From a virus (Duplodnaviria; Heunggongvirae; Uroviricota; Caudoviricetes): a stretch of 48,241 nt of DNA. Below the pieces are notes generated by a model, which worked only from the letters and a program-made list of their open reading frames with translations, made no database searches and was not told the DNA's origin. Location: IMG/VR virus record IMGVR_UViG_2617270956_000008, positions 1 to 48,241 of that record; one strand, given 5' to 3'. The translations under genes and the position numbers were made by a program. Every line of letters begins with the position of its first letter. Positions within the stretch are counted from its first letter, which is position 1. Positions 2,197-3,548 of the stretch are shown piece after piece.

Positions 2197-2886
2197 CGCT
2201 CATCGCCTCCTGACGCTATCAGACAACGCATTTTACCAGAACACTACCACTTACCGCATTCGACTTTAACCTGACCCATGTTCGTTGATAGCTCTGGATA
2301 TATATTCAACCCAAAAGCATTGACCTTATGGATAACATCACAATATCTGAAACTGATAACTCAGATTATAACATCTGTGATTTTATAGTTTCTTCACTCA
2401 TTTGTGTGAGTTCTGAAACCAAGCGAATATAAGTATTTTTCAACCTATCTTTATCGCAACGACTTACAGACTCCGATAACAGATAATGGCTATAATTATT
2501 GACATAAATATCATTGTCATTTTCAATGAGTGAGTTTTATTCCATGTTCAGTATCTTCTACTTTGTTTACAATACAGATCATAAATGGTGTTTTCTCATA
2601 GGGATGAAAGAGTGTTATCATTTTAATATTTTTCATTTTATTTTTTACTTTTTTATTACTATTTAATACAACATCGCGATCGTGAAAATCAAATTTATTT
2701 ATTTTTTAACCATGATTTTCCCTCTTATTTTTAAACTACTTTTGAAAAAATCTTTATCTCTGTGCTGACGCACGGCTACGCCCTGACGCTGACATTTTTA
2801 TTTTATTCATCTCCTGTCTGTTAAATAAAAAGAAAAGCACTCGATCATTGTTTGATCTCTTTTCCTCATGATGCTGAATTTAGATC

Positions 2887-2902
2887 CTATGTTTAAACAT
2901 AG
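2887..2902. promoter_or_regulatory. perfect 16-bp palindrome CTATGTTTAAACATAG in the untranslated leader
   Basis: Read directly from the sequence; dyad symmetry typical of a dimeric regulator site. Function unknown. Confidence 0.3.
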
Positions 2903-2960
2903 TTTTTCCCTTTAGACATATAGCATTTGCTCTTAAACGTATAGGAAAACTACATCCTTG

Positions 2961-3001
2961 GTAGCAGCGCTTCGTGATTGTTGCGAACAATCACTCTGCT
3001 G
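2961..3001. repeat. hairpin-forming repeat, copy 1
   Basis: GTAGCAGCGCTTCGTGATTGTTGCGAACAATCACTCTGCTG; inner stem TGATTGTT/AACAATCA and outer stem CAGC/GCTG. Confidence 0.5.
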
Positions 3002-3098
3002 AACAGGGCTTGCCCCTGTTAATATTGGATTTATCCAAAAAAGATCGCGTCGTAGACGCATATAAAGTTAAAGTAAAATTAATCAAGCAGTCCCGATA

Positions 3099-3139
3099 GT
3101 AGCAGCGGTTCATGATTGTAGAAAACAATCACTTCGCTG
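3099..3139. repeat. hairpin-forming repeat, copy 2
   Basis: GTAGCAGCGGTTCATGATTGTAGAAAACAATCACTTCGCTG; same architecture as copy 1, 138 bp downstream, with a changed outer stem (CAGCG/CGCTG) that preserves pairing. Confidence 0.5.
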
Positions 3140-3548
3140 TAATAACATAGTAGGAAAAATAACACAGATAACACCACTGGTGCCATTTTGATAAGGCACC
3201 AATCAACTAAAGAGAAGAACTATTTTCAATATTACATTCTTTAAAATGTCATCCAAAGCTTCGCTATTTGAATAATGAAGAAGAAAAATGCTCTCAAGCC
3301 AGCTATAGCTTAAAACAAAGTACGCACTCTTGGGAGTTAAAGTCCCGAATCCCGGTACTTAAGTTGATAACTATTCTCAAATAAAAATAATAAAGTGTTA
3401 TTGTATATATTCTGTAGCACTACAATTTTTATACGTAAAAACATCAAGTGTTAGTTATTTTAAAAAATATAAACTTTAAGTATTGACTTGCACACAAAAT
3501 ATAGTATCTACTTAAATGTATAACTAAAAAAATAAAGGAGTAAATACC

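What the first reader, a model, noticed from the sequence alone, without database searches (positions are those of the whole stretch)
2200..3548. 1.35-kb AT-rich non-coding leader with a pair of covarying hairpin repeats and a perfect palindrome
There is no ORF of 60 aa or more on either strand between the 320-aa gene and the RepL-like gene. The region holds two 41-nt hairpin repeats (2961-3001, 3099-3139) in which the inner stem is conserved while the outer stem differs but still pairs, a pattern that argues the structure is selected. It also holds a 16-bp perfect palindrome (2887-2902) and a further inverted repeat TGGTGCC...GGCACCA near 3178-3200. Candidates are a structured ncRNA, replication-origin-like sites for the adjacent RepL-like protein, or H-NS-silenced regulatory DNA.
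Basis: seen in the sequence. Interest (0 to 1): 0.5.

Follow-up and report, generated by a model that had tools for sequence, protein, structure and literature searches.

The report
Conserved hairpin module of mobilizable island
The two hairpin repeats are real and belong to a roughly 450-bp non-coding block that is conserved, often better than the neighbouring genes, in a family of mobilizable genomic islands across enteric bacteria; it most likely acts as a DNA site for replication or establishment of the island, but its function has not been tested.

Summary
The window is E. coli CFT073: the serU/tcpC island, a ROD21-like mobilizable island. The repeats (2961-3001, 3099-3139), the 16-bp palindrome (2887-2902) and the inverted repeat (3178-3184 with 3195-3201) are all present. 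The repeat motif is expected 0.01 times by chance in the window.

The "1.35-kb non-coding leader" is partly a decayed gene (2366-2636, minus strand) and a deletion scar. The hairpin stems do not covary: they are invariant in about 110 copies from about 55 loci of Enterobacterales, while the loops vary.

The repeats sit in a conserved array:
- an invariant 13-mer, GCACGGCTACGCC
- the palindrome
- a 39-nt box
- H1, Hs, a DnaA-box-like palindrome, Ht, H2 and Hx

Hs and Ht keep their pairing through compensatory changes. The array stays the same while the downstream Rep-like gene changes type or is absent, so the repeats are not RepL-specific iterons. Rep-specific iterons lie closer to rep. Single hairpin units also occur in the traD-mobQ spacer of some islands. 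There is no Rfam, plasmid or phage counterpart.

Best reading (0.35): an origin-type, cis-acting DNA module with protein-recognised hairpins. Rivals are convergent small RNAs, an auxiliary oriT or relaxosome site, and operators. Moderate interest.

The parts
2366..2636 (-). Frameshifted remnant of a conserved small island gene (89-110 aa in relatives). It is not part of the non-coding module, but it lies inside the reported 'leader'.
   Evidence: RefSeq pseudogene C_RS30675. Intact orthologues are found in L003, L006, L007 and L010. The N-terminal 37 codons are still readable.
2762..2784 (+). 'Block': the short inverted repeat GTGC-TGAC-GCAC (2762-2773) overlapping the invariant 13-mer GCACGGCTACGCC (2770-2782), followed by CT.
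   Evidence: The 13-mer is invariant in 44/44 module copies from many genera. An inverted repeat of lineage-specific sequence always precedes it. On the minus strand it caps a hairpin with 94% of cells paired, but the folding z-scores are small.
2887..2902 (.). Perfect 16-bp palindrome P, CTATGTTTAAACATAG.
   Evidence: It is conserved at this position in many islands. In relatives the same sequence forms arrays of 3-4 copies, 22-24 bp apart, upstream of the 244-aa RepL type.
2917..2955 (+). Conserved 39-nt box, CATATAGCATTTGCTCTTAAACGTATAGGAAAACTACAT. It contains TTGCTC (2927-2932), an 18-nt spacer, then TACATC (TATATT in most relatives), ending about 7 nt before the GCAGC of H1.
   Evidence: Nearly invariant columns. 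The promoter reading is my own inspection; the scan tool did not call it in CFT073.
2961..3001 (+). Hairpin repeat H1: outer arms CAGCG/TGCTG, a 4x2 asymmetric internal loop, inner stem GTGATTGT/ACAATCAC, variable loop.
3002..3020 (+). Hairpin Hs, AACAGGG-CTTGC-CCCTGTT.
   Evidence: Two pairs change on both sides in 8 of 44 sequences (CAGGG/CCCTG to GGAG/CTCC). Other stem versions occur in the traD-mobQ copies.
3025..3039 (.). Palindrome TTGGAT-TT-ATCCAA, containing the DnaA-box-like TTATCCAAA (3031-3039).
   Evidence: GGATTTATCC is nearly invariant. It is an 8/9 match to TTATNCACA.
3047..3059 (.). Hairpin Ht, GCGTC-GTA-GACGC. On the minus strand it is followed by a T-rich tail.
   Evidence: Compensatory variants GCGGC/GCCGC and TCGGC/GCCGA, with variable loops. 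The scan calls it terminator-like on the minus strand in three divergent islands. In 24 of 26 modules it lies 55-57 nt from the hexamer inside H2.
3099..3139 (+). Hairpin repeat H2, a direct repeat of H1. On the minus strand its loop and arm read TACAAT.
   Evidence: A minus-strand promoter-like site overlaps it in CFT073 (3143..3115) and in L012. TACAAT is present in 24 of 34 modules.
3178..3201 (.). Hairpin Hx, TGGTGCC-N10-GGCACCA.
   Evidence: It is conserved in E. coli, Klebsiella, Pectobacterium and Yersinia islands. In L012 and L020 the scan calls it terminator-like on the minus strand; in CFT073 the scan calls a different, overlapping stem (3186..3168).
3206..3526 (+). Rep-proximal segment with three copies of an ACTTAAGTTGATAACTA-like motif (3206, 3357, 3509) and promoter-like sites. 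It is a candidate binding and operator region specific to this RepL type.
   Evidence: families D8, D13. A plus-strand promoter-like site lies at 3364-3391. This segment changes with the Rep type in relatives.
3549..4130 (+). RepL-like winged-helix gene (193 aa), the variable partner of the module.
   Evidence: Pfam RepL, 25.3 bits. RefSeq annotation.

Best explanation
The region is the conserved non-coding core of the replication/maintenance module of a ROD21-like (EARL-type) integrative mobilizable island. I think it works in cis on DNA.

Each Rep-like winged-helix protein has its own repeats immediately upstream of its gene. These are the Rep-specific part.

The shared part is a family-wide array of about 450 bp of small hairpins: the invariant 13-mer block, palindrome P, H1, Hs, a DnaA-box-like palindrome, Ht, H2 and Hx. 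I propose that it supplies assembly or strand-initiation signals. These would be used when the excised or conjugatively transferred island is unwound or single-stranded.

The two 41-nt repeats would be hairpin-forming sites read sequence-specifically by a conserved island or host protein. They are not RNA helices and not RepL iterons.

Shown:
- the anatomy of the array
- its conservation
- its independence from the Rep type
- the structural conservation of Hs and Ht

Inferred:
- that the sites act as DNA
- that they serve replication or establishment
- which protein binds them
For: - Position. In about 50 loci the array lies next to a Rep-like gene, on the right, on the left, or on both sides.
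- Rep-specific repeat arrays lie between the array and rep. Palindrome P occurs 3-4 times at 22-24 bp spacing before the 244-aa RepL type. Other repeats occur before the 233-aa phage-O-like Rep and the Yersinia RepL.
- Selection. The 13-mer and the hairpin stems are invariant from E. coli to Yersinia, Pectobacterium and Photorhabdus. The non-coding core is 79% identical between CFT073 and a Klebsiella island, against 70-76% for mobQ, traD, DUF4756 and the lipoprotein gene.
- Hairpin rather than plain duplex site. H has a conserved 4x2 asymmetric internal loop with an invariant TT. Hs and Ht keep pairing through changes on both sides. The 471-nt module of L012 folds far better than shuffles as single-stranded DNA on both strands, z = -5.2.
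- Origin-like accessories. There is a nearly invariant 8/9 DnaA-box match, 4 GATC in 300 bp against about 1 on average, and a very AT-rich flank.
- Not a known RNA family and not a conserved ORF (frame-breaking indels).
- Not a chance feature.
Against: - No replication has been shown. For ROD21, deleting the RepL-like gene SEN1990 changed neither copy number nor the amount of excised island, and the island is about one copy per chromosome (PMC10655114).
- The origin-like accessories are weak: one good DnaA-box match and a modest GATC excess.
- The array does not occur in any autonomous plasmid or phage record.
- Single H+Hs units occur in the traD-mobQ spacer, which points towards transfer or regulation rather than replication.
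- Promoter- and terminator-like signals with fixed spacing fit small RNAs equally well.
- Strand evidence is mixed. The block hairpin favours the minus strand, the few wobble pairs in Hs favour the plus strand, and the H outer pair favours neither.
Confidence: 0.35

Rival explanations
1. Two convergent small transcription units, or antisense control of the rep leader. A promoter in the conserved box (TTGCTC-N18-TATATT) starts a plus-strand RNA at H1 that ends at Hs. A promoter embedded in H2 (minus-strand TACAAT) starts a minus-strand RNA of about 70 nt that ends at Ht. The repeats would then be the 5' stem-loop of one RNA and the promoter or operator of the other.
For: - The scan tool independently calls a minus-strand promoter over H2 and a minus-strand terminator at Ht in both CFT073 and a Klebsiella island. 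It also calls minus-strand terminator-like hairpins at Ht in L020 and at Hx in L012 and L020.
- Across 34 modules the hexamer is TACAAT in 24 and AACAAT in 8. The -35 match is at least 4/6 in 23.
- A perfect GC hairpin follows at 55-57 nt in 24 of 26 modules, with 5-8 T in the next 10 nt, although the linker sequence varies.
- Hs and Ht show compensatory changes, as terminators do.
- Precedent: SGI1 needs a self-encoded sRNA encoded next to its oriT (PMC9299015).
Against: - RNA-seq of S. Enteritidis showed low transcription of the homologous spacer (PMC10655114).
- No Rfam match.
- Hs has a poor U-tract, and the box promoter is degenerate in CFT073 (TACATC).
- Invariant stems and an invariant spacer inside the box are more than a promoter or an RNA helix would need.
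- Promoter-like hexamers are common in AT-rich DNA: the counts do not exceed shuffles in two of the three regions scanned and are about twice the shuffle mean in L020.
Confidence: 0.25
2. Origin of transfer, or a second relaxosome assembly site. The MobQ relaxase nicks at ...GGCTACG|CCCT in the invariant block. The H repeats bind an accessory protein such as the TraD homologue.
For: - The block has the MOBQ layout: an inverted repeat, then about 7 nt, then G|CCCT. Compare the pSK41 oriT sequence, confirmed; the nick position is from my own knowledge.
- The inverted repeat changes sequence but is always present.
- The island relaxase is closest to NES of pLW1043.
- H units also lie in the traD-mobQ spacer.
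- The authors of PMC10655114 suggested that this spacer might hold the unidentified oriT.
Against: - The block is 4.7-7 kb from mobQ.
- The block lies on the sense strand of mobQ. In pSK41 the sequence that carries the nick (the nick position itself from my own knowledge) is on the strand antisense to the relaxase gene.
- The traD-mobQ spacer has its own conserved MOBQ-like motif on the expected strand (minus-strand AAATAAGTAACGCG) plus conserved hairpins.
- The match to the nic core is only 6 of 7 bases.
Confidence: 0.15
3. Duplex operators. GTGATTGT-N5-ACAATCAC is the binding site of a dimeric regulator, encoded by the island or by a helper plasmid, that co-regulates the leftward operons. 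This would resemble AcaCD or KorA/KorB boxes on other mobile elements.
For: - Half-sites are invariant while the centre varies.
- Copies lie upstream of two separate minus-strand operons, in the same orientation relative to them.
- There are two to three copies per spacer.
Against: - The outer arms are placed asymmetrically (4 nt against 2 nt), with an invariant TT on one side only. A symmetric dimer does not explain this.
- H1 is 325 nt from the start of the small gene.
- The adjoining Hs and Ht are conserved as structures, not as sequences.
Confidence: 0.15
4. Functionless AT-rich, H-NS-coated spacer and gene debris; the repeats are a chance or recent local duplication.
For: - Low GC.
- A pseudogene and a deletion lie in the left third of the region.
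- An H-NS paralogue is encoded nearby.
Against: - The motif is expected 0.01 times per window.
- About 110 copies in about 55 loci of many genera have invariant stems.
- The core is more conserved than most neighbouring genes.
Confidence: 0.02

Closest known systems
Iteron-type replicons with a winged-helix initiator (pSC101, P1, and lambda ori with palindromic O-protein sites)
   Same: A Rep-like wHTH gene is preceded by an AT-rich spacer, a DnaA-box-like site and repeats. In relatives, 3-4 palindromes spaced 22-24 bp apart lie just upstream of rep.
   Different: The two repeats in question are 138 bp apart and independent of the Rep type. They sit in a shared hairpin array that those replicons lack. 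Replication has not been shown, and the ROD21 homologue was dispensable for copy number.
IncQ (RSF1010/R1162) oriV with the ssiA/ssiB hairpins used by the MobA-linked primase (from my own knowledge)
   Same: An element with a MOBQ relaxase, in which roughly 40-nt hairpins conserved across the family sit beside Rep-specific iterons.
   Different: Here both hairpins are on the same strand, not on opposite strands. No primase domain is detected in the 500-aa MobQ. There is no sequence similarity.
MOBQ origins of transfer (pSK41/pGO1 nes oriT, RSF1010 oriT)
   Same: The block has an inverted repeat followed by a short spacer and G|CCCT. The island relaxase is related to NES and MobA.
   Different: The block is kilobases from mobQ and on the other strand than in pSK41. 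A better candidate lies in the traD-mobQ spacer.
Small RNAs of mobile elements: the SGI1 sgm-sRNA next to oriT (PMC9299015), and plasmid countertranscripts such as CopA or RNAI (from my own knowledge)
   Same: Short units of a promoter, about 55 nt, then a GC hairpin and a T-tail in a spacer beside rep. The linker is variable and the ends are conserved.
   Different: No transcript is known. The homologous spacer is poorly transcribed in Salmonella. The unit lies about 400 nt from the rep start, further than classical countertranscripts.
Single-stranded DNA promoters and priming sites of conjugative leading regions (F Frpo/ssi; from my own knowledge)
   Same: A cluster of hairpins on one strand in a conjugatively transferred element. 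If the minus strand is the one transferred, it is the template strand for repL, DUF4756 and hns.
   Different: Frpo is one long hairpin of about 300 nt that carries -35 and -10 boxes. Here there are only short hairpins, and the site would enter late rather than first.

Membership tests
Any Rfam RNA family | Match to a curated covariance model | tested here: not met
   No hit in 2200-3548 at gathering score. At E<=10 the only hit is a chance snoRNA match, 20 bits against a gathering score of 44.
Structured RNA helix (H1/H2) | Base pairs maintained through compensatory changes | tested here: not met
   In H1, four of the five outer pairs and six of the eight inner pairs never vary. The fifth outer pair varies on one side only, and one inner pair has two CG variants. 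Across 73 copies the single variable outer pair is mismatched in 10 of the 65 copies with the standard 3-nt 3' spacer.
Structured hairpins Hs and Ht (RNA or ssDNA) | Base pairs maintained through compensatory changes | tested here: met
   Hs has 2 pairs changed on both sides in 8 sequences. In Ht the pair GC 26 / UA 13 alternates, and further stem versions exist. Cells with changes on both sides number 48 against 16 in shuffles, 0/500.
Iteron-type oriV | Three or more phased direct repeats (about 17-24 bp period) bound by the adjacent Rep | tested here: not met
   H1 and H2 are two copies 138 bp apart and do not track the Rep type. Phased arrays do exist in relatives, but they are made of palindrome P or other motifs.
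Iteron-type oriV | DnaA box and AT-rich unwinding region next to the rep gene | tested here: inconclusive
   There are two 8/9 matches to the DnaA box (3031 on the plus strand, 3267 on the minus strand); the one at 3031 lies in the nearly invariant GGATTTATCC and is the conserved one. GC is 0.33-0.35. GATC excess is modest.
Iteron-type oriV | Supports autonomous replication | not testable with these tools
   The only data are for ROD21: about one copy per chromosome, with no effect of deleting the RepL-like gene (PMC10655114).
MOBQ oriT | Inverted repeat 5' of a conserved nic core (..AAGTGCG|CCCT) | tested here: inconclusive
   The block has an inverted repeat followed by GGCTACG|CCCT, matching 6/7 of the core. 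The nic position of the reference is from my own knowledge.
MOBQ oriT | Adjacent to the relaxase gene, with the nicked strand antisense to it | tested here: not met
   The block is 4.7-7 kb from mobQ and on its sense strand. In pSK41 the oriT lies about 80 nt upstream of nes on the opposite strand.
IncQ-type ssi pair | Two hairpins on opposite strands plus an element-encoded primase | tested here: not met
   Both repeats are in direct orientation. MobQ has only a MobA_MobL domain.
Dispersed repeats (REP/BIME, MITE) | Many copies scattered over the genome | tested here: not met
   There are two copies in 48 kb and none elsewhere in 25 kb of the island. All genomic hits lie in the same island context.
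ROD21-like (EARL) integrative mobilizable islands (the host element) | Gene set: type IV pilin/PilV, TraD, MobA/MobL relaxase, AlpA-type RDF, P4-like integrase, integration next to a tRNA gene, often H-NS and TIR genes | tested here: met
   The CFT073 annotation shows pilV, pilin, traD, mobQ, tcpC, hns, alpA and DUF6387 next to tRNA-Ser; no integrase of the island's own appears in the stretch examined there. A related E. coli island has an integrase at the far end and the Klebsiella island one beside the DUF6387 gene. The family is described in PMC6035254.

The most novel reading that the evidence does not exclude
The direct repeats define a pair of convergent, island-encoded small RNAs.
- One starts at H1, from the conserved box promoter, and ends at Hs.
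- The other starts inside H2, from the embedded TACAAT promoter, and ends at Ht.

Because they derive from direct repeats read in opposite directions, their 5' ends are mutually complementary. The pair would control establishment, replication or mobilisation of the island, in the way SGI1 depends on its sgm-sRNA.
Probability: 0.2. Interest if true: 0.6.

Novelty: new variant of a known kind. Interest (0 to 1): 0.45.

Why it matters
This island family includes the tcpC/serU island of uropathogenic E. coli and Nissle 1917, ROD21 of Salmonella Enteritidis and ICEKp258.2 of K. pneumoniae ST258. The islands excise, and ROD21 is mobilised by conjugation. Yet the origin of transfer of the best-studied member, ROD21, was still unidentified in 2023, no replication origin has been described for these islands, and the RepL-like gene has no demonstrated role.

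The work here gives exact coordinates and consensus sequences for the best-conserved non-coding elements of the family. It also gives a second candidate site in the traD-mobQ spacer. The question of which DNA the island needs in cis can therefore be tested directly with small clones and oligonucleotides.

If the array proves to be a strand-initiation or small-RNA module shared by islands with interchangeable Rep proteins, it would be a new building block of mobilizable islands in Gram-negative bacteria.

Tried and rejected
- Rfam at gathering and permissive thresholds: nothing.
- Plasmid and phage collections. There is no phage match. The four plasmid records that match are island copies or, judging by their size, probably mislabelled chromosomes. 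The invariant block is found in no other plasmid.
- Covariation in H1/H2: the stems are invariant, so there is no support. RNAalifold on either strand finds only local hairpins.
- A conserved small ORF. The 41-aa ORF at 2974-3099 is broken by indels in relatives.
- H1/H2 as RepL iterons: rejected, because the Rep type varies or rep is absent while the repeats stay the same.
- A primase domain in MobQ, which would make an IncQ-like ssi system: not found.
- Function of the neighbouring small proteins (89/110 aa, 128 aa, 320 aa): no informative Pfam or NCBIfam hit.
- Strand assignment from wobble pairs and folding energies. The minus strand folds better in 36 of 44 sequences. However, the z-scores of the block are small on both strands, and Hs points the other way. 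The result is inconclusive.
- A long-range pairing of the block with Ht, seen in single-strand folds of L012. It is not conserved in the GCGTC-type islands such as CFT073, so I did not pursue it.
- Literature. There is no characterisation of this spacer beyond a passing remark. A search for published transcript maps of CFT073 found nothing usable.
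Full report
**Where the window comes from**

The 1349-bp region is 100% identical to E. coli CFT073, Nissle 1917, ATCC 25922 and relatives. It matches 690 of 5426 complete E. coli genomes, always on chromosomes. In CFT073 it lies in the island next to tRNA-Ser (serU). That island carries pilV, a type IV pilin, traD, a MobQ relaxase, tcpC, an H-NS paralogue, an AlpA-type regulator and a DUF6387 gene. This is the gene set of the ROD21-like (EARL) integrative mobilizable islands (PMC6035254). The high-pathogenicity island follows downstream.

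**Check of the observation**

- The two 41-nt repeats are at the stated coordinates, with 34/41 identity.
- A degenerate motif derived from them matches only these two places in the window, where 0.01 matches are expected.
- Both repeats fold as an inner stem plus an outer stem. Copy 2 is far more stable than shuffles (z about -4). Copy 1 is not (z -1.3 and -1.2 on the two strands).
- The 16-bp palindrome (2887-2902) and the TGGTGCC/GGCACCA repeat (3178-3184 with 3195-3201) are real.
- No ORF of 60 aa or more lies inside the region.

Two statements need correction.

First, the left third is not a leader. Positions 2366-2636 (minus strand) are a frameshifted copy of a small gene that is intact, at 89-110 aa, in related islands. 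A 128-aa gene found in relatives has been deleted from 2200-2365. The true spacer is about 2637-3548.

Second, the hairpins do not covary. In CFT073 the 5' outer arm is the same in both copies, and only the 3' side differs. Across the family, the other outer pairs and seven of the eight inner pairs hardly vary. The one variable outer pair is A-T 29, G-C 17, G.T 9, A.C 8 and A.A 2.

**Comparative anatomy**

Ten diverged E. coli and Klebsiella islands keep both repeats at about 139 bp spacing. A scan of one genome per bacterial species with the hairpin motif returned 58 stretches. Three are chance hits. The other 55 are island loci. Most come from Escherichia, Klebsiella, Citrobacter, Enterobacter, Salmonella, Serratia, Yersinia, Pectobacterium, Dickeya, Brenneria, Erwinia, Photorhabdus and others; two contigs assigned to metagenome bins named Bacillota and Suipraeoptans (L022, L061) carry complete modules with enterobacterial-type neighbouring genes.

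An alignment of 44 distinct copies shows a fixed array:
- an inverted repeat followed by the invariant 13-mer GCACGGCTACGCC (2770-2782)
- palindrome P
- a nearly invariant 39-nt box (2917-2955)
- H1
- a small GC hairpin, Hs (3002-3020)
- the palindrome TGGATTTATCCA, which contains an 8/9 DnaA-box match (3031-3039)
- a second GC hairpin, Ht (3047-3059)
- H2
- a further hairpin, Hx

A compact version found in some islands has only the block, one H, Hs and Ht.

Hs and Ht keep their pairing through changes on both sides, and their loops vary. In the H repeats the stems are invariant and the loops vary. The H repeats also carry a conserved asymmetric internal loop of 4 nt against 2 nt, with an invariant TT.

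The non-coding core is 79% identical between CFT073 and the island on Klebsiella plasmid pINF177.2. The figures for mobQ, traD, DUF4756 and the lipoprotein gene are 75%, 70%, 71% and 76%. The region is therefore under purifying selection on specific sequence. It is not just AT-rich, H-NS-bound filler.

**Relation to the rep gene**

The gene to the right is a RepL-like winged-helix protein of at least six different types: 181, 189, 193 and 244 aa; a 233-aa protein with weak phage-O and DnaD matches; and a Yersinia type. In one case it is absent. A second RepL-like gene often lies divergently on the left. The array does not change with the Rep type, so H1 and H2 are not RepL-specific sites.

Rep-specific repeats exist closer to each rep gene:
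- palindrome P, repeated 3-4 times with 22-24 bp spacing, before the 244-aa type
- other repeats before the 233-aa and the Yersinia types
- in CFT073, three copies of an ACTTAAGTTGATAACTA-like motif at 3206, 3357 and 3509

**Relation to transfer**

Single H+Hs units also lie in the traD-mobQ spacer of several islands, on the same strand as in the array. CFT073 has none there.

The island relaxase is closest to NES of pLW1043, and next to MobA of RSF1010. The invariant block resembles a MOBQ nick region: an inverted repeat, about 7 nt, then G|CCCT. The pSK41 oriT sequence I used for comparison is confirmed; the nick position is from my own knowledge. However, the block is kilobases from mobQ and on its sense strand. 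In pSK41, by contrast, the strand carrying this oriT sequence (the nicked strand, on my own knowledge of the nick position) is antisense to the relaxase gene.

The traD-mobQ spacer holds its own conserved MOBQ-like motif on the expected strand (minus-strand AAATAAGTAACGCG) and conserved hairpins. I therefore rank oriT as a minor rival for this region. The authors of the SEN1990 paper did suggest it (PMC10655114).

**RNA signals**

Rfam finds nothing. RNAalifold finds only the local hairpins.

The scan tool does call a minus-strand promoter overlapping H2 in two divergent islands, and a minus-strand terminator-like hairpin at Ht in three. Across 34 modules the hexamer inside H2 reads TACAAT in 24. 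A perfect GC hairpin follows at 55-57 nt in 24 of 26 modules, with a T-rich tail, although the linker sequence varies. The conserved box also reads as TTGCTC-N18-TATATT, ending about 7 nt before the GCAGC of H1, in most relatives. This is my own inspection, and the hexamer is degenerate in CFT073.

Against RNA:
- The homologous spacer of ROD21 is poorly transcribed.
- Hs has a poor U-tract.
- The invariance of the stems and of the spacer inside the box exceeds what a promoter or an RNA helix requires.

**Strand evidence**

On the minus strand the block forms a hairpin with a GGC-GTA-GCC apex. Its lower pairs are kept in 94% of cells, many of them as G.U. The minus strand folds better in 36 of 44 sequences. 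However, the block's z-scores are small on both strands, and the few wobble pairs in Hs favour the plus strand. As single-stranded DNA the whole module of L012 folds much better than shuffles on both strands, z = -5.2. I cannot assign the functional strand.

**Verdict**

The feature is a family-wide, uncharacterised non-coding module.

| Reading | Confidence |
|---|---|
| Origin-type cis-acting DNA region: Rep-specific iterons next to rep, plus a shared array of protein-recognised hairpins used for assembly or strand initiation | 0.35 |
| Convergent small RNAs or antisense control | 0.25 |
| oriT or auxiliary relaxosome site | 0.15 |
| Duplex operators | 0.15 |
| Functionless spacer | 0.02 |

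The function has not been tested. The ROD21 data, which show no detectable replication role for the RepL-like gene, caution against the leading reading. The module resembles known kinds of element (oriV with accessory hairpins, ssi sites, countertranscript units) without being a member of any that I could test.

Noticed in passing
window 2366-2636 (-) and 2200-2365: A frameshifted remnant of a conserved 89-110-aa island gene, and beside it the scar of a deleted 128-aa gene that is present in related islands.
   Followed up: yes
L005 4415-4500; L008 3938-4025; also L022, L029, L042, L054, L060: The 16-bp palindrome of window 2887-2902 recurs as iteron-like arrays of 3-4 copies, 22-24 bp apart, just upstream of the 244-aa RepL type. 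A single copy is kept in the shared array even in islands with other Rep types.
   Followed up: partly
window 3206-3229, 3357-3380, 3509-3526: Three copies of an ACTTAAGTTGATAACTA-like motif spaced 151-153 bp apart upstream of repL. The last copy lies between a TTGACT hexamer (3483) and the ribosome-binding site, so it may be a RepL operator.
   Followed up: no
L001 2789-3433 (CFT073 traD-mobQ spacer, about 6.4 kb upstream of the window start): Conserved CGCGTTACTTATTT (minus strand AAATAAGTAACGCG, resembling the ATAAGTGCG|CCCT nick region of pSK41 on the strand antisense to the relaxase). Two GC hairpins with TTAC loops, one with a compensatory change in Yersinia. A long inverted repeat just before mobQ. 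This is a better oriT candidate for the island.
   Followed up: partly
L012 2441-2500; L015, L016, L030, L039, L046: Single H+Hs hairpin units lie in the traD-mobQ spacer of several islands, on the same strand as in the rep-side array. They are absent from that spacer in the E. coli serU-type islands.
   Followed up: partly
window 2770-2782 and Ht in relatives (e.g. L012 8682-8694): The core of the invariant 13-mer (CGGCTACGCC) recurs in inverted orientation inside the Ht hairpin of many islands (GCGGC-GTA-GCCGC). In single-strand folds this gives a 10-bp long-range pairing, which is not kept in CFT073.
   Followed up: partly
L007 3409-3775 and 6587-6970; L005; L041: Some islands carry two complete arrays, or tandem block+hairpin units. 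One island (L007) has arrays without any adjacent rep gene.
   Followed up: no
window 5759-6163 (+) and 6685-6927 (-): A full-length H-NS paralogue (Hfp) and, convergent with it, a short ORF. The orthologous gene in a related island (L004) is annotated as an H-NS family protein, so the short ORF is probably a truncated H-NS of the H-NST type.
   Followed up: no
window 36414-36588 (-), 44269-44320, 44554-44630, 44655-44742 (+): Rfam gathering-level hits to sok, DicF, isrK and C4 antisense RNA, typical of prophage DNA. They are unrelated to the finding.
   Followed up: no
L002 1-436, L008, L009, L060, L072 38472-41105: Some islands carry a lone DotA/TraY-family gene (877 aa in L072); in the one island examined in full (L072) no other type IV secretion genes are annotated. 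It sits next to the array side of the island.
   Followed up: no
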